From: Candidatus Eiseniibacteriota bacterium
Lineage (GTDB): Bacteria > Eisenbacteria > RBG-16-71-46 > SZUA-252
DNA length: 64,000 bases
Direction of reading: 5' to 3'
Assembly: GCA_036505295.1 (NCBI GenBank)
Contig: DASXTQ010000042.1
Span: 6,769-70,768 of the forward strand
In this document: positions 9,549-30,570 of the stretch, piece by piece
Position numbering within the stretch: the stretch's first letter is position 1
Layout: every line of letters begins with the position of its first letter
Notes under the pieces: generated by a model
Seen by the model: only the letters and a program-made list of their open reading frames with translations
Databases searched by the model: none
What the model was told of the DNA's origin: nothing
Program-made: the position numbers and the translations under genes

Positions 9549-9836
9549 CTACCAGCGACCCAGGAGACCGGGGTCGGGCATCATTTCCGGGGTCCACTGC
9601 TCGGCCAGGATCTCCACATCCGAGGCCTTCCCCGTCACGGTGCTGACGACTTCCTTCACTTGCTGGATGATCTGGGGAGCGTAGGGGCAGAACGGCGTCG
9701 TCAGCAACATGCGAACCACGAGCGGCTCGGCCGTCTGGTCGATCTCCCGCACCAGCCCCAGCTCGATGATGCTCAGGTTGATCTCTGGATCCATAACCTG
9801 CTCCAAGGCAGTCTTGATTTCCTCTTCGGTCGCCAT
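9549..9836 (-). CDS. sufT: DUF59/MIP18-family Fe-S cluster assembly protein (SufT-like)
   Basis: 95 aa. Conserved TTPFCPYAPQI motif of DUF59/SufT family. Confidence 0.75.
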   Translation of the reverse strand: MATEEEIKTALEQVMDPEINLSIIELGLVREIDQTAEPLVVRMLLTTPFCPYAPQIIQQVKEVVSTVTGKASDVEILAEQWTPEMMPDPGLLGRW

Positions 9837-9871: not shown

Positions 9872-10195
9872 CTAGTCCGGAAGCCCGATGAAGAGCTCGT
9901 TTCCTTCCACGCGCACCGGATAGGACTCGACCGGCGTGACCGCGGGAAGCGTGAGCGCGTCTCCCGTCTTGATATTGAATCGCGCGCCGTGACGGGGGCA
10001 GATCACCTGGTCCTCCTCGATCTCTCCCTCTGCGAGAGGCCCGCCGTCGTGCGTGCAGATGTCCTCGATGGCGTAAAAGCCATCCTCGAGCCGGAAGACG
10101 GCGATCTTCCGGTCCTCGACGTCGAAGACCTCCGCGCGCCCGCCGGGTATGTCGCTCGCCTTTCCCACGCGCACGTAACGCGCCGTCCCGGTCAT
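9872..10195 (-). CDS. Rieske [2Fe-2S] domain protein (non-haem iron-sulfur ferredoxin-like)
   Basis: CTHDGGPL...CPRHGARF Rieske ligand boxes. Start taken at MTGTARYVRV, immediately after the sufU stop. Confidence 0.8.
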   Translation of the reverse strand: MTGTARYVRVGKASDIPGGRAEVFDVEDRKIAVFRLEDGFYAIEDICTHDGGPLAEGEIEEDQVICPRHGARFNIKTGDALTLPAVTPVESYPVRVEGNELFIGLPD

Positions 10196-10197
10196 CC

Positions 10198-10596
10198 CTA
10201 GTCTTCCTCGCCGGGCCAATTCTGCTGTACGCCGTAGACGCCCACCTTGAGCGTCTTCAGCGCGAGGAGTGCGCATTTGAGCCGGACGGGACCCAACTCG
10301 ATTCCAAGCATATCTAAAACGTCGTCCCGATTGATCAGTTTTACCTCGTCGAGCGTTTTTCCCTCGATCGCCTCCGTCAGCATGGAAGCGGCCGCGCGGC
10401 TGATCGAGCAGCCTTTGCCGCTGAACCGGACCGCATCGACCTTGTCGTCCTTGATCTTGAGATCGATCCGGATCTCGTCACCGCAGAGGGGATTTGCATC
10501 CTGGGCGGTGATATCCGGCTTCTCGAGGGTGCCCCAATTGCGTGGATTCTGGTAATGGTCGAGGATGGTCTCTCGGTAAAAGTCGTCGAGGCTCAT
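10198..10596 (-). CDS. sufU: SUF-system Fe-S cluster scaffold SufU (NifU/IscU-like)
   Basis: NPLCGDE...GCSIS...LKCALLAL conserved Cys ligands. Confidence 0.85.
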   Translation of the reverse strand: MSLDDFYRETILDHYQNPRNWGTLEKPDITAQDANPLCGDEIRIDLKIKDDKVDAVRFSGKGCSISRAAASMLTEAIEGKTLDEVKLINRDDVLDMLGIELGPVRLKCALLALKTLKVGVYGVQQNWPGEED

Positions 10597-11840
10597 CGGT
10601 GAAAGACTTGCTTCGCCTTCCGGACCCCTTCCACCAGGACCTCGATGTCGCAGGGCAGATTGTACACGTAGAAGCTGGCCCTCGTCGTCGCCGCCACACC
10701 GAGCTTCGCGTGGAGCGGCATGGCGCAGTGATGTCCGGCGCGCACGGCGACCCCCTCGTGATCCAGGACGGTCGCCACGTCGTGCGCGTGGATGTCGTCC
10801 AGAGTGAACGCGACGATGCCCCCTCGCTCAGCGGCGGGGGGGCCATAGATCGTCACGCCCGGAATCTCCCCCAGGGCCCGCATCGTCTCCGTGACCAGCC
10901 CGCGCGAGTGTTCCGCGATCGCGTCGAATCCGATCTTCTCGATGTAATCGATCGCGGTCCCGAACGCAATCGTGTCCGCGATGTTCATCGTGCCGGCCTC
11001 GAACTTCCAGGGGACCTCGTTCCACGTGGATCCCTCGAGCTTCACCTCGCGGATCATCTCACCGCCGCCCAGGAAGGGAGGCATGGATTCCAAATGTTCG
11101 CGCTTGCCGTAGAGCGCGCCGGTCCCGGTGGGGCCGAGCATCTTGTGCGCGGAGAACGCGAGAAAGTCGCAATCGAGCTGTCGCACGTCCACGCCGAGGT
11201 GCGGGAGGCTCTGGGCCGCGTCCACGAACACGAGCGCGCCTCGGGCGTGCGCCCTTCGGGCGATCTCGGCGACCGGGTTCACCGTGCCGAGCACGTTGGA
11301 CATGTGGGTGAGGGAGACGATCTTGACCGGGCCCTCGAGCAGCCGGTCGAGCCCGCTCAGGTCCAGCTTCCCCCTGGCATCGAATGGGATGTACCGAATC
11401 GCCGCGCCGCGCTCCTGGGCGAGCATCTGCCACGGAACAAGATTCGAGTGATGCTCCATCTCGGTGAGCACGATGACGTCGCCCGGGCCCACGTTCTTCC
11501 GGCCCCATGCGTTTGAGACCAGATTCACCGATTCCGTGGTGCCGCGGGTAAAGACGATCTCGTGCGAGGAGCGCGCATGAAGGATTCGCGCCACCTTCTC
11601 GCGGACCTCTTCGTATCGCGCGGTGGCCTCCTCGGCGATCGCGTAGACGCCCCGATGGATGTTGGCGTTATAGGTGCGGTAATAGTGCGCCAGGGCTTCG
11701 ATCACGGCGACAGGCTTTTGGGTCGTCGCCGTGCTGTCGAGGTAGATCAGCGGCTTCCCGTGAGCCTTCTGCTGGAAGATCGGGAAGTCGTTGCGGATCG
11801 CGGCGAAGTCCACGCGCCGCTCGGGGGCCAAGACCCTCAC
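10593..11840 (-). CDS. sufS: Cysteine desulfurase SufS (class V aminotransferase)
   Basis: 415 aa. PLP-dependent cysteine desulfurase family with SufS-type motifs (SAHKMLGPTG; C-terminal HHCAMP). Confidence 0.9.
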   Translation of the reverse strand: MRVLAPERRVDFAAIRNDFPIFQQKAHGKPLIYLDSTATTQKPVAVIEALAHYYRTYNANIHRGVYAIAEEATARYEEVREKVARILHARSSHEIVFTRGTTESVNLVSNAWGRKNVGPGDVIVLTEMEHHSNLVPWQMLAQERGAAIRYIPFDARGKLDLSGLDRLLEGPVKIVSLTHMSNVLGTVNPVAEIARRAHARGALVFVDAAQSLPHLGVDVRQLDCDFLAFSAHKMLGPTGTGALYGKREHLESMPPFLGGGEMIREVKLEGSTWNEVPWKFEAGTMNIADTIAFGTAIDYIEKIGFDAIAEHSRGLVTETMRALGEIPGVTIYGPPAAERGGIVAFTLDDIHAHDVATVLDHEGVAVRAGHHCAMPLHAKLGVAATTRASFYVYNLPCDIEVLVEGVRKAKQVFHR

Positions 11841-11841
11841 G

Positions 11842-13233
11842 TCACGCCGCGGCCTTCCGCTCCACGGCGGCGGTCACGGTCGTGCGGAGCGATTCGGCCG
11901 GAATCCTCTCGAGCACAGGTTCGAAGAACCCCTGGATGATCATCCGTTCCGCCTCCGGCCGCGGGAGGCCCCTCGACCTCAGATAGAAGAGCTGGTCCTC
12001 GTCGACCTGGCCGACGGTGGCCCCGTGCGTACATCGAACGTCGTTTGCCTCGATTTCCAGGCTCGGGATCGAGTCCGCACGCGCTCTCTCGGAGAGAAGG
12101 AGATTCCGGTTCGCCTGGTAGGCGTCCGAGCGCTGGGCATCCTTGTGCACCTTGATCAGGCCCTGGTAGACCATCCGCGCGCGGTCGCGAAGCGCGCCCT
12201 TGAACAGGAGGTCGCTGACCGAGTGACCGACGTTGTGGTTCTGGAAGGTGTGGAAATCGAAGTGCTGCGTCCCATTCCCGAAGTAGCAGCCGGAGAACTT
12301 GGCCTCGGTCCCCTCGCCGTCGAGGTGCATCTCCAGATCCAGCTTGGTGAGCTTTCCGCCCAGCGCGGTGTAGGTCCAATGGAACCGCGCGTCGCGCGCG
12401 ATCCGTACGCGCTCCGTGCCGAAGTGATGGATGTTGCCACCCCAGCGCTGGAAGGTGGCGAGATGGAGGCTCGCGGATTGCCCCACCGTGACCTCGGTCG
12501 CGCCGACGTTCACGCCCGCCCCCGGCTCGCCGTGCGAGACGTACTCCTCGATGACCGCCGCTTCGGACCCGTTCCCCATTGCGATGACCACGTGCGGGAA
12601 CGTCCCGAGCTCGGGCGTCTCGCGGGTGAAGAGAAGCTGGATCGGACGCGGAACCTTGACCCCATCCGGCACGTAAAGAAACGCTCCGCCGCTCTCCAGA
12701 GCGGCCGCGAGCCCCGTGAAGCGGTTCTCGTCGAAGCGGACCGTCCGTCCGAGGAAGCGCTCCACGAGCGCGGGGTGCGCGCGCGCGGCATCCCGGATCG
12801 GCATCAGGACGACGCCGAGCTTCGCAAGCTCCGGCTCCCGGTCGATCAGAATCGCATTCGAGTCGAGCTGGACGAGGAGCGCCGAGCGCTCCTCCGGCGG
12901 CCCGATCTCGGCGCGGACCGCCGCGGGAAGCGCGCTCGTAGAAGCGACGGCGGGGTGCGGCTCCCGCACCGCGAGGATCGACTCCCATTTGAAGGAGCTG
13001 ATGTCGGTCCGCCGCCACAGCTCTTCGGTGCGTGCGGGAAACGGCGTCTTCTCGCAGTACGCCCACGCCGCCGCACGGCGCCGCGCCAGAAATTCAGGCT
13101 CCTCGGCCCGCTTCGAGAGCGAGGCGATCTCGCCTGGGTTCAAAGCGCCGACGCGAACCGAGTCGAGCGTCCGCGGAGGCGCCAGGGTGTCGGATGGATT
13201 CACGCTTGATTCTCCATGGGTTCGGGCTGCCAT
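11842..13233 (-). CDS. sufD: Fe-S cluster assembly protein SufD
   Basis: 463 aa SufB/SufD-fold protein located between sufB and sufS. Confidence 0.8.
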   Translation of the reverse strand: MAARTHGESSVNPSDTLAPPRTLDSVRVGALNPGEIASLSKRAEEPEFLARRRAAAWAYCEKTPFPARTEELWRRTDISSFKWESILAVREPHPAVASTSALPAAVRAEIGPPEERSALLVQLDSNAILIDREPELAKLGVVLMPIRDAARAHPALVERFLGRTVRFDENRFTGLAAALESGGAFLYVPDGVKVPRPIQLLFTRETPELGTFPHVVIAMGNGSEAAVIEEYVSHGEPGAGVNVGATEVTVGQSASLHLATFQRWGGNIHHFGTERVRIARDARFHWTYTALGGKLTKLDLEMHLDGEGTEAKFSGCYFGNGTQHFDFHTFQNHNVGHSVSDLLFKGALRDRARMVYQGLIKVHKDAQRSDAYQANRNLLLSERARADSIPSLEIEANDVRCTHGATVGQVDEDQLFYLRSRGLPRPEAERMIIQGFFEPVLERIPAESLRTTVTAAVERKAAA

Positions 13234-13246
13234 TGAACGGGAGCGG

Positions 13247-14662
13247 TCAGCCGACCGATCCCTCCATTTGGAGTTGGATGAGACGGTTCATCTCGACCGC
13301 GTACTCCATGGGCAGCTCCTTCGTGATCGGTTCGATGAACCCGTTCACGATCATGGCGGATGCTTCCGCCTCCGGGATGCCGCGGCTCATGAGGTAAAAG
13401 ATCTGCTCGTCGCCGATCTTCGAGACCGTCGCCTCGTGTCCGATCGTGACCTGATCCTCCTCGATTTCCATGTACGGATAGGTGTCCGACCGGGAATGCT
13501 CGTCCAGAAGGAGCGCGTCGCAGCGAACGGTGGACTTGCTGCCCTTGGCCCCCTTCGCGACCTTGATGAGCCCGCGGTAGCCCGCGCGGCCGCCGTCCTT
13601 GCTGATCGACTTGGACACGACGCTCGAGGTGGTGTTCGGCGCGGCGTGGACCGCCTTGCCGCCGGCGTCCTGGTGCTGGCCCTTGCCGGCGAACGCGATC
13701 GAAAGGATCTCCGCGTGCGCGCCCGGCTCCATAAGGTAGACGCTCGGATATTTCATCGTGAGCTTGGACCCGAGGTTCGCGTCCACCCACTCCATCCGTG
13801 CGTTGCCGTAGGCCATGGCACGCTTGGTGACCAGGTTGTACACGTTGTTCGACCAGTTCTGGATCGTGGTGTAGCGGCAGTAGGCGCCGCGCTTCACGAT
13901 GATCTCGACCACAGCCGAGTGAAGCGAATCGCTCGCGTAGGTCGGAGCCGTGCAGCCCTCGACGTAATGCACCGAGGCGCCCTCGTCCACGATGATGAGG
14001 GTCCGCTCGAACTGACCCATGTCCTTCGCGTTGATCCGGAAGTACGCCTGAAGCGGGAGATCCACCTTCACGCCCTTCGGCACATAGATGAACGAGCCGC
14101 CGCTCCACACCGCGCTGTTCAGCGCGGCGAACTTATTGTCCGAAGGCGGAATGACCGTCCCGAAGTATTCCCGGAAAAGCTCCGGGTGCTCCTTCAGCGC
14201 GGTGCCCGTGTCGAGGAAGATGACGCCCTTCTCCGATAGGCTCGCCTTGATCTTGTGGTAGACCGTCTCGGAGTCGTACTGGGCGCCCACGCCGGAGAGA
14301 AACTTCTGCTCCGCCTCGGGAATGCCCAGACGATCGAAGGTCTTCTTGATGTCGGCCGGGACCTCGTCCCAGGTCTTGCTCTGCTCCTCGGCCGGCTTCA
14401 GGTAGTAATAGATGTTCTGGAAGTCGATCTCCTCGACCTTGCCCCCCCAGCGGGGCAGAGGCTTCTTCTCGAACTGCTCGAGCGCCTTCAGACGAAACTC
14501 CTTCATCCAGGCGGGCTCGTTCTTGATGTCGGAGATCTGCGAGACGACTTCCTTGTCGAGTCCGCGGCGCGTCTTGAAGACGGACTTCTCCTCGTCGTGG
14601 AAGCCGTACTTTTCCTTGTATCCTTCTCGGATATCCAGCGTCGGCTGCTGTGTCGTTGTCAT
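13247..14662 (-). CDS. sufB: Fe-S cluster assembly protein SufB
   Basis: 471 aa. Strongly conserved SufB sequence throughout. Confidence 0.9.
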
Positions 14663-14680: not shown

Positions 14681-15451
14681 CTAAGCGGCCTGGTCCTCGC
14701 GGATCCAGTCATATCCCTGCTTCTCGAGCTCGAGCGCAAGGTCGGCCCCGCCGGACTTGACGATCCGCCCGTCCACGAGCACGTGGACGAAGTGCGGCTT
14801 AATGTAGTTCAAGATCCTCTGGTAGTGCGTGATCAAGAGCACGCCCAGGTCCGGTCCCGTCAGCGCGTTCACGCCTTCGGAGACGATCCTGAGCGCGTCG
14901 ATGTCGAGTCCCGAATCGGTCTCGTCCAGAATCGCGATCTCGGGCCTTAGCACGGCCATCTGCAAGATTTCCGCGCGCTTCTTCTCACCGCCCGAGAAAC
15001 CGTCGTTCAGGTAACGGCCCGCGAACGACTCGTCCATCCTGAGTAGAGCCATCTTCTCCTTGACGAGCGTCCGGAATTCCTTGGGCGGGATCGGCTTCTC
15101 CTCGCCCAGCTCCTTCCGCCGCACGTTCAGCGCGTTCCGGAGGAAATTCGCGACGCTCACGCCCGGGATGGCCGTCGGGTACTGGAACGCGAGGAAGATG
15201 CCCTTCCGCGCGCGCTCGTCCGGGGAAAGCTCGAGGACGTCCTCGCCCTTGTAGAGGATCGTTCCGTCCGTCACCTCATATTTGGGATTCCCCATCAGCG
15301 CGTTCGCGAGCGTGCTCTTGCCCGATCCGTTCGGTCCCATCAGGGCGTGGATCTCACCCTTGTTCACGGCCAAGGAAAGGCCCTTCAATATGGGCTTCCC
15401 GTCGATCGAGATGTGCAGATTTCGAATCTCCAGCGTCGGTGTAGCGCTCAT
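14681..15451 (-). CDS. sufC: Fe-S cluster assembly ATPase SufC
   Basis: Start at [12 protein letters not shown] with AAGGAGA RBS. ABC ATPase with Walker [10 protein letters not shown] and ABC signature. Confidence 0.9.
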
Positions 15452-15474: not shown

Positions 15475-15867
15475 CTAAAGTGTGAAGCTGTCCCCGCATC
15501 CGCACGTCTTCTTGACGCGCGGGTTCTTGAACTGGATCCCGGTCCCTAAGAGCCCGCGTTGGTAGTCGATCTCCGTCCCCGCGAGAACATCCAGCGAGCG
15601 CGGATCCACATAAACGGTCAAGTCCTCGTATTCGAGCACGGTGTCGCTGCCGCGACGTTCCGTCGTGAAACCAAGAAAGTAGCTGTACCCAGAGCAACCC
15701 CCCGCCTTGACCCCGATGCGAAGCGCCTGCCCTTCCTTGCCTTCGTTCCCGCGGATACGCTTCACGTAGTCCACGGCGGCAGGCGTGAGGGAGATGGAGC
15801 TCGTCCCCTGGGGTTCGCGGGTCTCGGTCTCCGTCGTGCGAATGTCGTTTGTTGGCTCTTCGCTCAT
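15475..15867 (-). CDS. sufA: A-type Fe-S carrier (HesB/IscA/SufA family)
   Basis: Conserved C-x(n)-CGCG ligand pattern (GGCSGYSY ... KTCGCGDSF). Confidence 0.85.
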
Positions 15868-16397
15868 GGGTTCTCCGGCGCGATGTGGAGCACGATCCTA
15901 TCGGATCGGCCCGGGTCGGTGTGGAAGCCCGCGACGAGCGCCGGCTCCTCCTTCATGCCATGATCCTCGGGGCAATGCGGGCAGTCCTGCTGCGTCGTTC
16001 GCGGCGGCCGGCATGCTTGGCAGGTACGCAGATACTCGAGCGTTCCTTCCAGCTCGCGCGCGAGCGTCTCGTACCGGATGATCGCCTGGCGCGTCTCCGT
16101 GAGCTTCTCCTGGAACGTTTCGCGCACGACGGCCATCGCCTCGGGGCCGTACCGGCTCCCGTGCCAGGCCTTGAGCAGGCCTTGAATCTGATGGAGCGAA
16201 AGCCCCGTTTCTTGGAGGAGCTCGATCCACCGGATTCGCGTGATGGCGGACTCGTCGTAGAGCCGAAATCCCCCGTTGCTGCGCGCAACCGGATGGAGCA
16301 GGTCGAGCTCCTCGTAGAGCCTGAGCGCCCGGACCGACTTGCCGGTCTGCCTTGCCAAGTCGCCAACCTTGAGGTGTTTTGAAACGACCGCTGCCAT
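15864..16397 (-). CDS. MerR-family transcriptional regulator with C-terminal Cys-rich cluster (C-x2-C-x10-C-x-H-C)
   Basis: N-terminal MerR HTH ([26 protein letters not shown]). Start at M7 (MAAVVSK) with GGGAGGG RBS. The first in-frame ATG at 16415 lies upstream of the predicted transcription start. Confidence 0.75.
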
Positions 16398-16419
16398 ACG
16401 ATCCCTCCCGTACATCTAC

Positions 16420-16450
16420 ATCTTACCCTTACGCGAAGGTTAGAGTCTAA
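16420..16450 (-). promoter_or_regulatory. MerR-type sigma70 promoter: -35 TTAGAC, 19-bp spacer carrying dyad CCTTCGCGTAAGG, -10 TAAGAT
   Basis: Read on minus strand. The 19-bp spacer is the hallmark of MerR-regulated promoters. Positioned about 7 nt before the merR RBS. Confidence 0.55.
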
Positions 16451-16666
16451 CTAAAATTTCGGCCGGGGAGCCTCGGGTGTTGAGCTGATTCAAAGGTTGG
16501 CGAGTGTCTGGGATAACTTGTTTATACGTATTAAGTTAGATGTTTCATTCCCGCATTCGGTTCATGCCGCTGGCCGCGACGGATGCCAACACAACCGGGG
16601 GTCACCGCAGTAGGCTCGGTGGTGTATATTGATGTGAGCCGGAGTCCATCCTTTCTGGAGGTTTTC

Positions 16667-17044
16667 ATGAAGCTGATCCAGGGCGCGCTGCTAGCCATCT
16701 TGATCCTCGTGCTCGGTGTTACAGCACTTTCTTGCAAGAAGAAGTCGAACCCCGTGGCACCCGGCGGTGGGGCCGACGTGACGATCGACATCGTCGCGGA
16801 CATGAACGCCGGGGCGTTCGGCGGCAAGCGTACCGTCGCCGTGGGCAAGACAGTTGCCTGGCGGAACACCCGCGGCACGACGCATACGTCCACCTCTGAA
16901 GGTGGCCCAGCAGGCGGCCAGTGGGACACCCAAGGGATCAGCCCAAGCGCCACGAGCGCGCCCATCCAAATGAACACGGTCGGAACGTACCCGTACGAGT
17001 GCACCATCCACCCGAGCATGAAAGACACGCTCGTGGTCCAGTAG
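16667..17044 (+). CDS. Cupredoxin-fold (plastocyanin/azurin-like) blue-copper lipoprotein
   Basis: GGAGG RBS. Lipoprotein signal (LGVTALSCKKK). C-terminal copper-ligand motif YPYECTIHPSMKD (Cys-x2-His-x2-Met) with upstream His. Confidence 0.7.
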   Translation: MKLIQGALLAILILVLGVTALSCKKKSNPVAPGGGADVTIDIVADMNAGAFGGKRTVAVGKTVAWRNTRGTTHTSTSEGGPAGGQWDTQGISPSATSAPIQMNTVGTYPYECTIHPSMKDTLVVQ

Positions 17045-26861: not shown

Positions 26862-29621
26862 TTACTTGAGAATCGTAATGCCCACCTTCTGTGAGAACCC
26901 ACCGGCATCGATCCGGGCGTAGTAGTGACCCGACGCGACACCGCGACCCGAATCATCCGTTCCGTTCCACACAGCGACGTGTGGCCCCGCCGGCTGATCG
27001 CCGTCCACGAGCTTGCGAACGAGACGGCCGTTCACGTCGTAGATCCGGAGCTTCACTCCGTAGCTCGCTCCACCGCTTCTCGGCAGCACATAGAGGAGCT
27101 TGGCTTGCGGGTTCGCCGGATTCGGTCCTGAGTTCGCGAACGCGAATCCATCCTCTCCAACCAAGCCGCCGATCCGGCCGGCCAGCGCGGGCGCCGCGAT
27201 CACGTTCGCGCTCAGGTTGTAGGTTTGTGGCACTCGTACACGGGGCACGCCGGTCGGAATGAAAAGCGACCCCTGGATATCCGTCACTTCCAGGAAGAAT
27301 TTTCTCGCCGTCTTGCTCTTCCCGGGCCCAGGCGGGGCCGTGAAGGAGATTTTCGGATTGAGCCCGCCGTTCGAGTCGTCGTCGAAGGCGACGAGGTCCC
27401 CGTTCTGGTCGAATAGGAACATCACGAGGTCCTGATCGTTCCTGCCGTCGAGACCCGTCGAGACGGCGCTAGCCTGGATCACATCGCCCGGTTTCGCGTT
27501 GAACAGGAAGTAATCCTGATCGCCCGCGGGCGAATAGGTCTCCGGCCGATTCACCGTCGGAAGGGTGAGCAGCTTCGCTTCCGTGGCATTGGCGCGGCCG
27601 TTGGGCTCATCCGCGTCCGGGTTCAGTCCCGTAATCGTCGTGTTGGACGTCAGGGTCTTGTGCCCTGCGTCGTCCACCGCCTGCACGAACCAGAGCTGGG
27701 TTCCACCCGGGAAGGCCGGAATCGTATCGGTCCTCATCGAGATGTGCTCGGAGGTGCCCGCGCTGCCGTCGGTCTCCAAAAGACCGGACGCGAGCCGGCG
27801 CACGAGGTCTACGTGGTCGGTCGAGCCCGGCGCCATCGGGAACCCGTCGAGCCGCTTATCGGCGGGATTGGAGTAGGTGAACTCGTATTTCGTCGCTCTC
27901 TGGTTCGTGCCCAGGTTCGCGACGGCCACGATCGGGGTCAGATCAGGTGACGCGAGTTGCGCGGTCATGCTGACCGCGACGTTCCGATCGATGAGGGTCC
28001 CGCCGGTCCCCGCCGTGCTGAGGCTGTAGTCGTTCGCGAAGAGCCCGCGCTCCATATCCAAGAAATCCATCCGGAGGAACGGGAAATTCGCCGGGAAGCT
28101 GGGGGGCTGGGCCGGGAACTGGATCGCCCAGAAGAGCACCTTGTCGGGGTCGTTGATGGTGACCCCGATGGGAATCTCGTTGGCGCCGTTCGGGCTCCCG
28201 ACAAAAGGCGCGATCTGGAAGAGCGGCGCCGCTAGGTTCGGGAGACCCGTCGCCGTGTTCAGCTCGCACAGCCGCACGCTCGGGAACGTCGCATCGAGCG
28301 GAGGCAGGCCGAGCTGGGCGTTGAACGTGAACGAGGGGAACGTCACCTTCGTGATCGTGTAGGGGGGCGTGAACGGAAGATCGAACCGTTTCGCCAGGAA
28401 TCCCGTGTTGCGGAAGGTCACAATGTTCTCGAACTGGCCGTACTGCGCGACGTCGACCTGGCCCGGGAACGTGTTCGTGATGAAATTGACCCCGCCGGCG
28501 TCGGAGCCGGAGCTCACGTTCACCGGGGTCGATTCGAACGCATGGTCCGTGAAGCCGTTGCCACCTTCGCTTGCACCGTTCCAGTACTCGACCTCGAAGT
28601 TGATGTCGATCCCGTTGAAGATCCCGCCGATGTTCGGATCGGCGGCGATCGTGTGAATCCCATCGAGTGGAACAATGCGGACGTCATAGGTGCCCGGCGG
28701 GAGACCGTGGATCGTGTATTCACCCTGTCCGTTCCGGACCGTCAGCTCGCCTGAGATCGCGCTGATGGAGTTGAGAGGATCCTGCAACGGACCCGGGGTG
28801 CCGGCGACCAGTGCCTCGACGTGCGCGCCGAAGACGGCCGAGGCGTCGAAGCCGCTCACGACCGTGCCGCTGATCGTTCCGGTCGTCGCCGCGAAATCAG
28901 CCGCACCGGGAGAAAGCCCACCTGGCCGGGAGGCGGATTCAGGGTAGATGGTCGAGTTGCCGGCCATATCGTCCAGCTCGAGAGTGCGCTGCCGCGTATC
29001 GCCGATGATGAACGGAATCATCGTCGCGTTCGCAATGCTCGTGTGGTCGAGACCGAAATAGTGGCCGTATTCGTGTGTGACGACCGACTGAAGATCCACG
29101 CTCGACTGGCCGGGAGGAGCCGGCGTGAGGTTCGGCGAGGACGTGGAGCAGAAGAAATCCCGGTCGTTGAACACCATGTCGGCGTCGAGCGTATGGCCGT
29201 CCGCCAGATCGATCGTGGAACGGACGAACGCGATCACCGTGCCGCCCGGCGCGAAATTCACGCCCGCGGTATCGAAGATCATGCTGTTCTGGCCGTCATT
29301 GGCATCGAGCGCGGGGGTGACCTGTCCCGGGGCCCCCGTGTATTCGACAGGGTTCACCGTGAAGAAGGATGTATTGATGTTCTCCCACGTTTCCGCGGAT
29401 GCCTGCACGACCGAAAGCGCTGTCGCCGATGGAATGTCGGCGTTGGTCGGGTTGATGACGCTCAGAAGCGGGAGCGAGGATTCGAGCCAATGAGCCTGGA
29501 CAATGCCGGTGTTCCCCTGGCGGGTCAGGCGGATGAACGCAGAAGCAGGACTGACCAGCGTGAGCGCGAAAACGAAAGCGCCGAGCGCGGCCAGGGCGAT
29601 ACGAATTCGATGCGATTTCAT
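26862..29621 (-). CDS. Secreted metzincin zinc metalloprotease with PPC (pre-peptidase C-terminal) and FlgD-Ig-like C-terminal domains
   Basis: Signal peptide. HEYGHYFGLDH (HExxHxxGxxH) zinc site. DQDYFLFNAKPGDVI PPC-like domain. C-terminal ...DVNGRLVRKLVDG...GHYYARIDAGG sorting-type domain. Confidence 0.8.
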   Translation of the reverse strand: MKSHRIRIALAALGAFVFALTLVSPASAFIRLTRQGNTGIVQAHWLESSLPLLSVINPTNADIPSATALSVVQASAETWENINTSFFTVNPVEYTGAPGQVTPALDANDGQNSMIFDTAGVNFAPGGTVIAFVRSTIDLADGHTLDADMVFNDRDFFCSTSSPNLTPAPPGQSSVDLQSVVTHEYGHYFGLDHTSIANATMIPFIIGDTRQRTLELDDMAGNSTIYPESASRPGGLSPGAADFAATTGTISGTVVSGFDASAVFGAHVEALVAGTPGPLQDPLNSISAISGELTVRNGQGEYTIHGLPPGTYDVRIVPLDGIHTIAADPNIGGIFNGIDINFEVEYWNGASEGGNGFTDHAFESTPVNVSSGSDAGGVNFITNTFPGQVDVAQYGQFENIVTFRNTGFLAKRFDLPFTPPYTITKVTFPSFTFNAQLGLPPLDATFPSVRLCELNTATGLPNLAAPLFQIAPFVGSPNGANEIPIGVTINDPDKVLFWAIQFPAQPPSFPANFPFLRMDFLDMERGLFANDYSLSTAGTGGTLIDRNVAVSMTAQLASPDLTPIVAVANLGTNQRATKYEFTYSNPADKRLDGFPMAPGSTDHVDLVRRLASGLLETDGSAGTSEHISMRTDTIPAFPGGTQLWFVQAVDDAGHKTLTSNTTITGLNPDADEPNGRANATEAKLLTLPTVNRPETYSPAGDQDYFLFNAKPGDVIQASAVSTGLDGRNDQDLVMFLFDQNGDLVAFDDDSNGGLNPKISFTAPPGPGKSKTARKFFLEVTDIQGSLFIPTGVPRVRVPQTYNLSANVIAAPALAGRIGGLVGEDGFAFANSGPNPANPQAKLLYVLPRSGGASYGVKLRIYDVNGRLVRKLVDGDQPAGPHVAVWNGTDDSGRGVASGHYYARIDAGGFSQKVGITILK

Positions 29622-29637: not shown

Positions 29638-30237
29638 CTACTCGGTTGGGGGGTTGGGGTCGACCTGGATCTTCCCATCGGAATCCAGGCTCGTCTTGAT
29701 GCCGTCGAGGAACGCGTTCAACGGCATGTCCGGCGCCGTCGTCGCTTCGACATGGCCGCCGCTCTTCGTGAGGAACTCGGTGCCGGCGAGGTCGTTGCGG
29801 ACCATCTTCACGCCGTTCTTGGCGGTCATGACCGAGTACTTGCCCTGCTGGAGTCCCATCACCCACGGATAGCCCGCCGCATCCTTCTGGGTCAGGAATA
29901 CGACGACTTCCTCGCCCTTGCGGAAGCTCGGCATCCCGGGAACCACGGAGGCGATGTTGCCCACCGTGCCACCGATCTGACGAAGCGTGATCGTCGTGGT
30001 GCCCTTCGAGCCTTTCACGGGCTGGAGCACGCTCAGCGTGAAGTAGGTGTAGATCTCCTTGTGGGCGGCGTCCCAGCTCGAGACCGCGTCATCGACGCGC
30101 GCCATGACGATGGACTCCGATTTCTTGGTGAGTTCTTGGAGGGTGAGCTTCTGGACCGTGGTGGCGAAGGCCACCTGCGCGCCAACGAGCGCCAGCGCGG
30201 CGATTGCAATGACCAGGAAGAGTCCAAATCGATTCAT
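29638..30237 (-). CDS. Secreted hypothetical protein (first gene of protease operon)
   Basis: AGGAGA RBS. Start MNRFGLFLVIAIAALALVGAQVAFA signal peptide. Sits 16 bp upstream of the metalloprotease gene. Confidence 0.6.
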   Translation of the reverse strand: MNRFGLFLVIAIAALALVGAQVAFATTVQKLTLQELTKKSESIVMARVDDAVSSWDAAHKEIYTYFTLSVLQPVKGSKGTTTITLRQIGGTVGNIASVVPGMPSFRKGEEVVVFLTQKDAAGYPWVMGLQQGKYSVMTAKNGVKMVRNDLAGTEFLTKSGGHVEATTAPDMPLNAFLDGIKTSLDSDGKIQVDPNPPTE

Positions 30238-30570
30238 CGCCTGTTCTCCTGACGTGAGGATCTGCTTCGGCGGCCCCGATGGGTCGCGTGACACGTGAGA
30301 TGAGGCGTGACTGCGGCAAAAACGTGGAGTGGGGTCTTATCCGGCGATCACCTCCCCGCGGATCCAAAATGGATCCTGTTGCTGGAACGCCATGAAGTTT
30401 GGAAGCGAAGCGGTGGTCGCGGATCGGCAGGAGCTGCCGTGGGACTCGCGCGCTGTATGCCCCCGAAGTGGGCGGAATTATATCAAATGTCTTGAGTTAT
30501 GTCAACGTAGAGCGACGCGCTTTCCGTCACCTGGTGGGACATTTTGGACAGAAATGTCCCTGACCGACAG

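What the first reader, a model, noticed from the sequence alone, without database searches (positions are those of the whole stretch)
15864..16450. MerR-family regulator with SoxR-like C-terminal Cys cluster heading the suf operon, with a 19-bp-spacer MerR promoter
The first gene of the 10-gene suf cluster is a MerR HTH protein that ends in C-QA-C-x10-C-PH-C. This is reminiscent of, but spaced differently from, the SoxR [2Fe-2S] motif CX2CXCX5C. Immediately upstream on the same strand lies a promoter with -35 TTAGAC, a 19-bp spacer containing the dyad CCTTCGCGTAAGG, and -10 TAAGAT. That is the geometry MerR regulators need for DNA-distortion activation. A redox or Fe-S-sensing MerR regulator that autoregulates and controls suf would be a regulatory solution distinct from IscR and SufR.
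Basis: partly seen in the sequence, partly recalled or inferred. Interest (0 to 1): 0.7.

Follow-up and report, generated by a model that had tools for sequence, protein, structure and literature searches.

The report
New MerR-type regulator of Fe-S assembly
The first gene of this iron-sulfur-cluster assembly (suf) operon encodes an undescribed kind of MerR-family regulator with four invariant cysteines; its relatives head suf or isc operons in at least two bacterial phyla, behind one conserved 22-bp operator, so it looks like a third type of dedicated Fe-S biogenesis regulator beside IscR and SufR.

Summary
The gene lies on the minus strand (16397..15864) and encodes a 177-aa MerR-fold protein. 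Its stop codon overlaps the sufA start. It heads the cluster merR-sufA-sufCBDSU-Rieske-sufT. The cysteine motif is C126-x2-C129-x9-C139-x2-C142 (x9, not x10), and 35 more residues follow it.

Comparative data are strong:
- All 75 informative loci out of 80 genomes carry an Fe-S biogenesis gene directly downstream. These are SUF operons in Eisenbacteria and complete iscS-iscU-iscA-hscBA-fdx operons in Myxococcota.
- Six of eight more distant family members that I sampled show the same linkage.
- A 22-bp palindrome, ACCCTTACG-N4-CGTAAGGGT, sits upstream of essentially every member. In the window it is unique: 29.6 bits, against a best shuffle score of 13.8.

The promoter reading is only partly supported:
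- The operator does fill the spacer.
- The better -35 register (TAGACT) gives 18 bp, not 19.
- In most relatives the operator lies downstream of a canonical 17-bp promoter, which is repressor geometry.

The protein is closest to the metal-sensing MerRs (CadR, PbrR, CueR), not to SoxR. Whether the four cysteines hold an Fe-S cluster is untested; a zinc or thiol switch is the main rival. No curated family model or paper that I could find describes this family. I judge it a new variant of a known kind. Interest 0.7.

The parts
15864..16397 (-). CDS of the Cys4 MerR-family regulator (177 aa); its stop overlaps the sufA start
   Evidence: ORF and translation. Pfam MerR_1, MerR and MerR-DNA-bind. 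340 or more homologues.
16167..16370 (-). Winged helix-turn-helix DNA-binding domain (residues 10-77)
   Evidence: PF13411 covers residues 10-77. AF2 pLDDT is above 90 here. This is the most conserved block across both phyla.
16014..16148 (-). Long dimerisation helix alpha5 (residues 84-128), ending in Y122-L123-x2-C126
   Evidence: AF2 helix H84-128. Foldseek matches CadR, CueR, PbrR and HiNmlR.
15972..16022 (-). Four-cysteine site C126-x2-C129-x9-C139-x2-C142, at the position of the MerR-family metal-binding loop
   Evidence: The four Cys are invariant in alignments A1, A2 and A3. The same holds in 80 genome loci. CX2-3C-X6-12-CX2C is present in at least 112 of 150 cluster representatives. 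C129 and C139 align with the PbrR loop cysteines.
15924..15971 (-). Conserved tail P143-E-D-H-G...P152-A-L-V-A-G-F158, with a short helix at 153-156
   Evidence: Invariant among close relatives. P-x-L-V-A-G is conserved into the Myxococcota. AF2 gives helix 153-156 at low confidence.
16425..16446 (-). 22-bp palindromic operator ACTCTAACCTTCGCGTAAGGGT (family consensus ACCCTTACG-N4-CGTAAGGGT)
   Evidence: Found upstream of merR in nearly all loci. Scores 29.6 bits and is unique in the window. All 87 sites of 16 bits or more in 775 kb of loci lie within 320 nt upstream of merR.
16444..16450 (-). -35-like element: TAGACT (16449-16444; 4 of 6; 18-bp spacer) or TTAGAC (16450-16445; 2 of 6; 19-bp spacer)
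   Evidence: T(A/G)G immediately 5' of the operator is conserved in at least 80% of the core Eisenbacteria clade but not in the Myxococcota.
16420..16425 (-). -10-like hexamer TAAGAT; its first base is the last base of the operator
   Evidence: TA[ACT]GAT occurs in 30 of 30 core-clade loci and is absent at this position in the Myxococcota.
16403..16409 (-). Shine-Dalgarno GGGAGGG, 5 nt upstream of the ATG at 16397
   Evidence: Read directly from the sequence. GGAGG is conserved at this position in close relatives.
16455..16483 (-). Weak alternative upstream promoter, or an UP-like block: TCAACA-N17-GAAATT, ending 8 nt before the operator
   Evidence: It occupies the position of the canonical promoter in relatives. 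The GCCGA+A/T-rich block is conserved in the core clade. Its function is not resolved.
15475..15867 (-). sufA (A-type Fe-S carrier), translationally coupled to the regulator
   Evidence: PF01521; TIGR00049 at 110.7 bits.
14681..15451 (-). sufC
   Evidence: TIGR01978 at 363 bits.
13247..14662 (-). sufB
   Evidence: TIGR01980 at 734 bits.
11842..13233 (-). sufD
   Evidence: TIGR01981 at 287.8 bits.
10593..11840 (-). sufS cysteine desulfurase
   Evidence: TIGR01979 at 585.8 bits.
10198..10596 (-). sufU
   Evidence: TIGR01994 at 114.1 bits.
9872..10195 (-). Rieske-type [2Fe-2S] ferredoxin; its start overlaps the sufU stop
   Evidence: PF00355. It is conserved after sufU in every sufficiently long Eisenbacteria locus.
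9549..9836 (-). SufT-like (DUF59 / FeS_assembly_P) gene
   Evidence: PF01883 at 58.5 bits.

Best explanation
The ORF encodes a member of a compact, unnamed MerR subfamily that acts as a dedicated regulator of Fe-S cluster biogenesis. The dimer binds the 22-bp palindrome at 16446-16425. That palindrome fills the spacer of the operon's own promoter, so the protein controls merR-sufA-sufCBDSU-Rieske-sufT together with its own synthesis.

I infer that the four invariant cysteines ligate an Fe-S cluster delivered by the machinery the protein controls. They sit exactly where CueR, ZntR, CadR and SoxR hold their metal or cluster. On this reading, cluster occupancy reports Fe-S supply:
- The cluster-bound form holds the promoter shut.
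- Loss or oxidation of the cluster relieves repression, and in this clade it may also re-phase the over-long spacer.

Functionally this is an IscR/SufR analogue built on a MerR scaffold.

Shown here: the fold, the Cys4 conservation, the synteny with SUF and ISC operons, operator conservation and uniqueness, and operator position.
Inferred: DNA binding at the operator, the Fe-S cofactor, and the sign of regulation.
For: Fold and placement of the sensor site:
- MerR fold.
- Cys4 is invariant and sits at the end of alpha5, in the metal-binding-loop position.

Family size:
- 192 clusters (50% identity) at E <= 1e-30, well separated from the 6,949 generic MerR hits at 1e-10.
- The motif is present in at least 112 of 150 representatives.

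Synteny:
- 75 of 75 informative genome loci have the Fe-S operon immediately downstream: 41 are ISC, starting with iscS, and 34 are SUF.
- The Sandaracinus locus reads merR-iscS-iscU-iscA-hscB-hscA-fdx, which puts the regulator in the slot that IscR holds in E. coli.
- Six of eight distant representatives (36-46% identity) sit upstream of iscS, sufB or an A-type carrier gene.

Operator:
- Conserved across both phyla and in the distant members.
- Unique in the window, and found nowhere else in 775 kb of loci.

Repressor logic:
- Most relatives have a canonical 17-bp promoter ending 8-15 nt upstream of the operator.
- The title of Hidalgo & Demple 1997, as listed in PMC9909328, says that promoter-element spacing converts SoxR from an activator into a repressor. 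That shorter spacers do this is my recollection of the paper, not read here.

Precedent for the motif:
- A twin-CX2C sensory Fe-S site exists in S. carnosus NreB, where CX2CX11CX2C binds [4Fe-4S] (PMC13478379).

Other:
- merR is translationally coupled to the A-type carrier gene sufA.
Against: - There is no biochemical evidence of any kind.
- By sequence alone, CX2C-loop-CX2C with a variable loop is most typical of zinc ribbons and knuckles. The only weak PDB look-alikes of the module, none significant, are zinc sites.
- The AF2 model is of low confidence over the Cys loop (pLDDT 61-72), and I could not measure any cofactor geometry.
- Classical MerR proteins stay bound to DNA in both states and activate when liganded. 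That would give the wrong sign for Fe-S homeostasis unless this family behaves differently.
- One distant member heads an ECF sigma factor gene rather than Fe-S genes.
- The left operator half-site in the window is degenerate (6 of 9).
- All Eisenbacteria data come from metagenome-assembled genomes (MAGs).
Confidence: 0.55

Rival explanations
1. Zinc/thiol redox switch. The four cysteines bind Zn(II), as in RsrA, Hsp33 or the structural site of Fur. Oxidants form CX2C disulfides and expel the zinc, which changes DNA binding or DNA distortion. The operon would then be induced by oxidative stress rather than by Fe-S demand as such.
For: - The motif CX2C-X6-12-CX2C, with its variable loop, is the commonest zinc-knuckle pattern.
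- The only weak PDB resemblances of the module are zinc sites: Fur, DC1, the Gag knuckle, bL32 and Nop10 (none significant).
- SUF systems are classically induced by oxidative stress (established knowledge, E. coli OxyR/IscR).
- One family member controls an ECF sigma factor.
Against: - The tight linkage to housekeeping ISC operons, in the IscR slot, across the Myxococcota fits supply sensing better than stress sensing.
- The dedicated regulators of these operons with a known signal (IscR, SufR, both from established knowledge) read an Fe-S cluster.
- The same motif type binds [4Fe-4S] in NreB.
Confidence: 0.2
2. The protein is a classical MerR-type activator. It sits in an over-long (19-bp) spacer, represses when un-triggered, and on oxidation or loss of its cofactor untwists the DNA to align -35 and -10. 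Activation would then be the main regulatory output.
For: - The operator fills the spacer and overlaps both hexamers, as at PcopA and PzntA (comparison from memory).
- The flanking T(A/G)GAC and TA[ACT]GAT are conserved in 30 of 30 core-clade loci.
- No 16-18-bp consensus promoter is detected in the region.
- MerR promoters typically have 19-20-bp spacers (PMC9909328).
Against: - TTAGAC matches the -35 consensus at 2 of 6 positions. TAGACT matches at 4 of 6 and gives 18 bp. Among the spacings counted, TTGACn...TAnnnT matches in the Eisenbacteria sequences peak at a 17-bp spacer (6 matches, 0-1 at any other spacing), so the merR promoter is one bp longer.
- The same protein family uses an operator downstream of a canonical promoter in most lineages.
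- A weak alternative promoter upstream of the operator cannot be excluded.
Confidence: 0.3
3. Direct metal sensor of the CueR/ZntR/CadR type. The Cys4 loop binds a free metal ion, either Fe(II) or a thiophilic toxic metal such as Cu(I), Cd(II), Zn(II) or Co(II) that attacks Fe-S clusters. The protein would switch the assembly operon on in response.
For: - The best-scoring curated models are CueR, ZntR, CadR-PbrR and MerR.
- The nearest solved structures are CadR, PbrR, CueR and MerR.
- C129 and C139 align with the PbrR loop cysteines.
- JGI auto-annotation calls many members 'copper efflux regulator'.
Against: - All of those models fall far below their cut-offs (61 against 147 bits for CueR).
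- No efflux ATPase or metal transporter is ever adjacent. Every informative locus carries Fe-S biogenesis genes instead.
- No cysteine aligns with PbrR Cys78, the N-terminal alpha5 ligand that divalent-metal sensors contribute (the identification of that ligand is from memory).
- Repressor geometry in most lineages does not fit metal-triggered activation.
Confidence: 0.1

Closest known systems
SoxR ([2Fe-2S] MerR-family redox sensor, TIGR01950)
   Same: - MerR fold.
- Four cysteines from one subunit, directly after the dimerisation helix.
- Operator inside the promoter spacer.
- It is the only established MerR-family protein with an Fe-S cluster listed in PMC9909328.
   Different: - SoxR's motif is CX2CXCX5C; here it is CX2C-X9-CX2C plus a conserved 35-residue tail.
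- The SoxR model scores 39 bits against a cut-off of 116.9.
- SoxR's target is soxS or a few redox genes, never suf or isc operons.
- SoxR is not encoded as the first gene of its target operon.
CueR / ZntR / CadR / PbrR / MerR (metal-sensing MerR regulators)
   Same: - Closest by sequence and by fold.
- The sensor loop is in the same position. C129 and C139 align with the loop cysteines of PbrR.
- The 22-bp palindrome overlaps the -35, as at PzntA (from memory).
   Different: - Two extra cysteines make twin CX2C pairs.
- No cysteine aligns with PbrR Cys78 at the N-terminus of alpha5.
- No model reaches its cut-off.
- The genomic partners are Fe-S assembly genes, not efflux pumps.
- The spacer is 18-19 bp, not 19-20.
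IscR (Rrf2 family, [2Fe-2S])
   Same: - First gene of the isc operon in E. coli. This family holds that very slot in the Myxococcota (merR-iscS-iscU-iscA-hscBA-fdx).
- Autoregulatory.
- Presumed to read out cluster occupancy.
   Different: - Unrelated fold: Rrf2 winged helix against MerR. No Rrf2 hit was found.
- IscR uses 3 Cys + 1 His as ligands (established knowledge).
- The operator sequence is different.
SufR (cyanobacterial and actinobacterial [4Fe-4S] repressor of suf)
   Same: - Encoded at the head of the suf operon.
- Represses suf and its own gene (as summarised in PMC11631912).
- Four-Cys cluster site.
   Different: - Unrelated DNA-binding fold.
- Cys spacing is C-X12-C-X13-C-X14-C (from memory).
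- No sequence similarity was detected.
NreB PAS-domain Fe-S site
   Same: A twin-CX2C sensory motif, CX2CX11CX2C, binds a labile [4Fe-4S] cluster in S. carnosus NreB (PMC13478379). This shows that motifs of this type can hold a sensing cluster.
   Different: NreB is a histidine kinase with a PAS domain, not a DNA-binding protein. There is no homology; the resemblance is in the motif only.
[quoted passage not shown]
   Same: A MerR-family protein linked to iron homeostasis in the FCB group. [quoted passage not shown]
   Different: MliR lacks an effector domain and has no cysteines. It is not linked to suf or isc operons.

Membership tests
MerR family of transcription regulators | N-terminal winged HTH of MerR type (PF13411 / PF00376) | tested here: met
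   PF13411 at 51.6 bits (cut-off 21.6) and PF00376 at 38.3 bits (cut-off 28.2).
MerR family of transcription regulators | Long antiparallel coiled-coil dimerisation helix followed by a C-terminal effector site | tested here: met
   PF09278 at 28.4 bits (cut-off 25.4). AF2 helix 84-128 with pLDDT about 90. Foldseek probability 1.00 to CadR, CueR, PbrR and BmrR.
MerR family of transcription regulators | Palindromic operator inside an over-long (19-20 bp) -35/-10 spacer | tested here: inconclusive
   The operator fills the spacer. The spacer is 18 bp in the better register and 19 bp in the poorer one. In most relatives the operator lies downstream of a 17-bp promoter.
SoxR (TIGR01950) | Scores above the equivalog cut-off | tested here: not met
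   39.0 bits against a cut-off of 116.9.
SoxR (TIGR01950) | CX2CXCX5C cluster motif | tested here: not met
   The motif here is CX2C-X9-CX2C. Across the family it is CX2-3C-X6-12-CX2C.
SoxR (TIGR01950) | Binds a redox-active [2Fe-2S] cluster | not testable with these tools
   Needs purified protein with UV-vis, EPR and metal analysis.
CueR / ZntR / CadR-PbrR / MerR metal sensors (TIGR02044, 02043, 02047, 02051) | Scores above the equivalog cut-off | tested here: not met
   CueR 61.1 against 147.4; ZntR 47.4 against 168; CadR-PbrR 48.9 against 151.5; MerR 44.6 against 150.9.
CueR / ZntR / CadR-PbrR / MerR metal sensors (TIGR02044, 02043, 02047, 02051) | Adjacent or target gene is a metal efflux or detoxification gene | tested here: not met
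   All 75 informative loci carry suf or isc genes downstream. No transporter is present.
IscR (Rrf2 family) | Rrf2-type winged-helix fold | tested here: not met
   No Rrf2 hit in Pfam or NCBIfam. The fold is MerR.
IscR (Rrf2 family) | First gene of, and autoregulator of, an Fe-S biogenesis operon | tested here: met
   The position is met. Autoregulation is inferred from the conserved operator upstream of the regulator's own gene and was not shown directly.
SufR | SufR-type DNA-binding domain and sequence family | tested here: not met
   No such hit in Pfam or NCBIfam.
Proposed Cys4-MerR Fe-S biogenesis regulator family (unnamed) | MerR fold + CX2-3C-X6-12-CX2C + P-x-L-V-x-G tail + ACCCTTACG-N4-CGTAAGGGT operator + suf/isc gene immediately downstream | tested here: met
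   The window protein and locus show all five features.

The most novel reading that the evidence does not exclude
This is a third structural class of dedicated Fe-S-cluster biogenesis regulator, after the Rrf2-type (IscR, RirA) and SufR. It would be a MerR-fold protein whose twin-CX2C loop carries an Fe-S cluster that reads out cluster supply. It was recruited to control SUF in Eisenbacteria and ISC in Myxococcota (Polyangia). It uses one conserved operator in two different promoter geometries: inside the spacer in one group, and as a downstream roadblock in the other.
Probability: 0.5. Interest if true: 0.8.

Novelty: new variant of a known kind. Interest (0 to 1): 0.7.

Why it matters
How cells match Fe-S cluster synthesis to demand is understood mainly through IscR and SufR, and many phyla have neither regulator in front of their suf or isc operons.

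A MerR-scaffold regulator in that slot would show convergent evolution of 'cofactor senses its own supply' control. It would add a second Fe-S-bearing MerR type beside SoxR.

It would also offer a natural experiment. The same protein and operator work inside a promoter spacer in one phylum and downstream of a canonical promoter in another. That bears directly on how MerR proteins switch between repression and activation.

The idea is testable now, because cultured carriers exist: Sandaracinus amylolyticus (WP_236604908.1 / AKF07563.1) and a Nannocystaceae isolate (L068).

It would also correct the widespread automatic annotation of these genes as 'copper efflux regulator' or 'mercuric resistance regulator'.

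Tried and rejected
1. C-terminal Cys4 module searched alone (alignment A4) against 5.8 billion proteins. It returned only truncated gene calls of the same family, for example L093, where the fragment is followed by iscS and iscU. No other domain architecture turned up.
2. The same module against PDB sequences. Nothing was significant (E >= 0.58), so it gives no cofactor assignment.
3. Rfam scan of the merR leader and intergenic region. No RNA element.
4. The sigma-70 consensus scanner finds no 16-18-bp promoter in 15800-16800. This is uninformative, because the candidate scores 8 of 12, below the tool's threshold.
5. I looked for tRNA genes to calibrate promoters. There are none in the window. 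I used spacer-length counts instead. The numbers are small: 6 hits at 17 bp, and 4 of them are merR promoters of relatives.
6. Literature: eight queries combining MerR with suf, isc, SufR, IscR, hscA, Myxococcus or iron-sulfur found no description of such a regulator. The library holds open-access papers only, so absence is not proof.
7. PF28507.1, precomputed for one Myxococcales homologue, is not in the local Pfam copy, so its meaning is unknown.
8. AF2 returned no coordinates, so I could not measure Cys-Cys distances.
9. SoxR membership was considered and rejected. CueR-type copper-sensor membership was also considered and rejected.
Full report
**What is in the sequence**

The feature lies on the minus strand. 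An ORF runs from the ATG at 16397 to the TGA at 15864 and encodes 177 aa. A strong Shine-Dalgarno sequence, GGGAGGG, lies at 16409-16403. The alternative ATG at 16415 lies only 5 nt after the putative -10 hexamer, so it is unlikely to be the start.

The protein hits the MerR HTH models PF13411 and PF00376 and the MerR dimerisation model PF09278. Its stop codon overlaps the start of the next gene (ATGA).

Downstream on the same strand, with tiny gaps or overlaps, come:
- sufA (A-type carrier), sufC, sufB, sufD, sufS and sufU;
- a Rieske ferredoxin;
- a SufT-like DUF59 gene;
- then a pterin-4a-carbinolamine dehydratase (PCD) and an ADP-forming acyl-CoA synthetase.

The cysteine motif is C126-QA-C129[10 protein letters not shown]139-PH-C142. 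The loop is nine residues, not ten. These are the only cysteines in the protein, and 35 more residues follow.

- TTAGAC at 16450-16445;
- 19 nt of spacer;
- TAAGAT at 16425-16420.

**Is it more than chance?**

A search of 5.8 billion proteins returned 340 homologues. The best 120 are 63-95% identical, and none carries a functional name beyond 'MerR family' or an automatic 'copper efflux regulator' label.

In alignments of close relatives (A1) and of relatives from two phyla (A2, A3), C126, C129, C139 and C142 are invariant. So are Y122, P152 and G157. Among close relatives the whole stretch C-x2-C-RPPRTT-x2-D-CP-x-CP-x-DHG-x4-PALVAGF is essentially fixed.

An exhaustive profile search of 1.84 billion cluster representatives found 192 clusters at E <= 1e-30, against 6,949 at 1e-10. 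The family is therefore a compact island inside the large MerR family. At least 112 of the top 150 representatives carry CX2-3C-X6-12-CX2C. Most of the remainder are fragments.

**Genomic context of relatives**

A scan of one genome for each of 185,579 species found 254 relatives, of which 80 loci were kept. The closest, at 95% identity, is a Candidatus Eisenbacteria MAG. The window therefore almost certainly comes from that phylum.

Using the window's Suf proteins and Isc proteins from one locus as tblastn probes, I found the following:
- 75 of the 80 loci have an Fe-S biogenesis gene as the first gene downstream, on the same strand.
- In the other five loci the contig ends within 183 nt of merR.
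- That makes 75 of 75 informative loci.

Two architectures appear:
- In the Eisenbacteria the order is merR-sufA-sufC-B-D-S-U-Rieske.
- In the Myxococcota (Polyangia, Nannocystaceae, Sandaracinaceae, Haliangiales; 45-53% identity) the order is merR-iscS-iscU-iscA-hscB-...

NCBIfam confirmed IscS, IscU, IscA, HscB, HscA and the ISC ferredoxin in a Sandaracinus locus. That is exactly the slot IscR holds in E. coli.

I sampled eight more distant representatives (36-46% identity):
- Six sit directly upstream of iscS, sufB or a lone A-type carrier gene.
- One could not be read, because its contig is too short.
- One precedes an ECF sigma factor.

**The operator**

Lining up the regions upstream of merR reveals a 22-bp palindrome with consensus ACCCTTACG-N4-CGTAAGGGT. 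It occurs in almost every locus of both phyla and in the distant members, including the one linked to an ECF sigma factor.

The window copy is ACTCTAACCTTCGCGTAAGGGT (16446-16425). Its right half is perfect, and its left half matches 6 of 9 positions.

- A weight matrix built from 67 other loci scores the window site at 29.6 bits.
- The next independent site in the 64-kb window scores -3.1.
- The best score in 50 shuffles is 13.8.
- In 775 kb of fetched loci, all 87 sites of 16 bits or more lie within 320 nt upstream of merR, and none lies elsewhere. The matrix came from these same sites, so only the absence of sites elsewhere is informative.

**Promoter geometry**

In the core Eisenbacteria clade (the window plus about 29 loci) the operator is flanked by T(A/G)G on the 5' side and by A-n-GAT on the 3' side in at least 80% of loci. 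This gives T(A/G)GAC(T/C) ... TA(A/T/C)GAT. These flanks are absent in the Myxococcota. They are therefore lineage-specific promoter elements, not part of the protein's recognition site.

The register matters:
- TTAGAC matches TTGACA at 2 of 6 positions and gives a 19-bp spacer.
- TAGACT matches at 4 of 6 positions and gives an 18-bp spacer.

Counting TTGACn-spacer-TAnnnT matches by spacer length in 383 kb of Eisenbacteria sequence gives a peak at 17 bp. There are 6 such hits, and 4 of them are merR promoters of relatives. The window also contains one perfect TTGACA-N17-TATAAT, at 30505. The phylum therefore appears to use canonical promoters, and the suf promoter is one bp, possibly two, longer than the 17-bp spacing that predominates among those matches.

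In the Myxococcota, the deep-branching Eisenbacteria (L030-L033, L035) and several distant members, a good TTGACx-N17-TAnnnT promoter ends 8-15 nt upstream of the operator. The operator then covers roughly +2 to +30, which is ordinary repressor (roadblock) geometry.

In the window a weak equivalent exists: TCAACA-N17-GAAATT at 16483-16455, ending 8 nt before the operator. Its A/T-rich part is conserved (GCCGA + A/T), and it could equally be an UP element. I cannot decide between these two readings without a mapped transcription start.

The MerR review read here lists Hidalgo & Demple 1997, whose title says that the spacing of promoter elements converts SoxR from an activator into a repressor (PMC9909328). 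From memory, the conversion came from shortening the 19-bp soxS spacer. An 18-bp spacer is therefore compatible with this protein being mainly a repressor, like its relatives.

**Structure and nearest relatives**

AlphaFold2, run with a 50-sequence alignment, gives a confident MerR fold (mean pLDDT 81):
- the HTH region has pLDDT above 90;
- helix alpha5 spans residues 84-128;
- the Cys loop is modelled at low confidence (pLDDT 61-72);
- a short helix forms at 153-156.

Foldseek against the PDB returns CadR, a B. cereus MerR-family protein, HiNmlR, MtaN, BmrR, CueR, PbrR and SoxR. All align over the N-terminal 120-130 residues only.

By sequence, the best solved relatives are Bacillus MerR (4ua1), PbrR (5gpe), MtaN, CadR and CueR. 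SoxR is much weaker, at E = 7.6e-9. In the PbrR alignment C129 and C139 fall on the metal-binding-loop cysteines.

The Cys4 site therefore sits where this family always places its effector. It is a twin-CX2C elaboration of that loop, and no cysteine aligns with the N-terminal alpha5 position that supplies a ligand (Cys78) in PbrR.

No NCBIfam equivalog reaches its cut-off. CueR scores 61 against 147, and SoxR 39 against 117.

**Mechanism**

Shown by the data:
- the fold;
- the position and invariance of the sensor site;
- obligatory linkage to SUF or ISC operons;
- one conserved operator that is unique in each locus;
- the position of that operator relative to promoter elements.

Inferred:
- that the dimer binds this operator;
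- that it autoregulates;
- what it senses.

My preferred reading (confidence about 0.55 for the whole chain) is that the four thiolates hold an Fe-S cluster supplied by the machinery the protein controls. The cluster-bound form would keep the promoter closed, and cluster loss or oxidation would relieve repression. In the Eisenbacteria it may also re-phase the slightly over-long spacer. This is the homeostatic logic of IscR and SufR.

Reasons for this reading:
- The protein holds the IscR slot.
- It is linked to both SUF and ISC operons.
- It is translationally coupled to the A-type carrier gene sufA. One lineage even has a minimal merR + A-type-carrier pair.
- A twin-CX2C sensory cluster has a precedent in S. 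carnosus NreB, where CX2CX11CX2C binds [4Fe-4S] (PMC13478379).

Reasons against:
- By sequence alone the motif looks most like a zinc knuckle pair.
- The only weak, non-significant PDB look-alikes are zinc sites.
- Nothing biochemical is known.

Rivals:
- a Zn/thiol redox switch that senses oxidants (0.2);
- a free-metal sensor of the CueR/ZntR type (0.1);

**Novelty**

Eight literature queries found no description of a MerR-type regulator heading suf or isc operons.
- A 2021 review lists only SoxR and NmlR as redox-responsive MerR proteins.
- Database names are generic or wrong: 'copper efflux regulator' and 'mercuric resistance operon regulatory protein'.

I classify this as a new variant of a known kind: a MerR scaffold and a cofactor-sensing Fe-S regulator in a new combination with its own motif and operator. 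The library searched holds open-access papers only, so a description in a subscription journal cannot be excluded.

**Caveats**

- All Eisenbacteria sequences come from MAGs.
- Several near-identical operons sit in bins labelled as other phyla, which points to mis-binning or horizontal transfer.
- Start codons in some relatives were assigned automatically, so their operator-to-start distances are approximate.
- The spacer-length statistics rest on few sites.

Noticed in passing
L032:7809-10292 (Eisenbacteria MAG DASXTP010000157.1): SufB carries an in-frame insertion of about 350 aa, bounded by ...VEG|CLPPGE... and ...AVHN|CTAPIY... This is the signature of an intein splitting SufB.
   Followed up: partly
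L081:65-1164 (also L082, L083): A distant Cys4-MerR family member (36% identity) is followed by an ECF sigma factor gene with overlapping stop and start, instead of Fe-S genes. It keeps the same 22-bp operator downstream of a TTGACA-N17-TAGGTT promoter.
   Followed up: partly
L085:1212-2086; L089:1026-2888: Two other family architectures turned up. One is merR plus a lone A-type carrier gene, followed by rplM. The other is merR-sufB with a divergently transcribed NifU-like gene.
   Followed up: partly
window:16455-16483 (-): Two blocks are conserved in the core clade: CTCAAC, then 17-18 nt, then GCCGA + A/T-rich, ending 7-8 nt upstream of the operator. They could be an UP element, a second (upstream) promoter, or another factor's binding site.
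   Followed up: partly
window:16667-17044 (+): A 125-aa lipoprotein-like ORF is transcribed divergently from merR. It ends ...YECTIHPSMKDTLVVQ, a cupredoxin-like C-x2-H-x4-M pattern. It has no Pfam hit.
   Followed up: partly
window:30477-30505 (-): A perfect consensus promoter, TTGACA-N17-TATAAT. A leader of about 200 nt follows, with no Rfam match, before a secreted 218-aa ORF (30294..29638) and a 919-aa protein with an HExxH-type metalloprotease motif and an N-terminal signal-like sequence (29621..26862).
   Followed up: partly
window:17046-20152 (-): A LuxC-like acyl-CoA reductase and a LuxE-like acyl-protein synthetase form a pair upstream of the suf locus.
   Followed up: no
window:7111-9540 (-): A pterin-4a-carbinolamine dehydratase and a 708-aa ADP-forming acyl-CoA synthetase follow sufT with gaps of only a few bases. 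They may be co-transcribed with the suf operon. No terminator was found between the Rieske gene and PCD.
   Followed up: partly
L004, L011, L014, L019, L024, L030, L043 (and proteins P0006, P0094, P0316): Near-identical merR-suf operons sit in MAGs labelled Binatia, Hyphomicrobiales, Limnocylindrales, Bacteroidota, Acidobacteriota, Saccharimonadales, Omnitrophota, Methylomirabilota and Dormibacteraeota. This points to contig mis-binning or horizontal transfer.
   Followed up: no
P0138 (Myxococcales homologue; same contig JASFKR010000004.1, 71,736 bp, as L039): This protein carries a precomputed Pfam hit, PF28507.1, that is missing from the local Pfam copy. It is listed for only one of the 120 homologues, so it is probably incidental. 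Its identity is unknown.
   Followed up: partly
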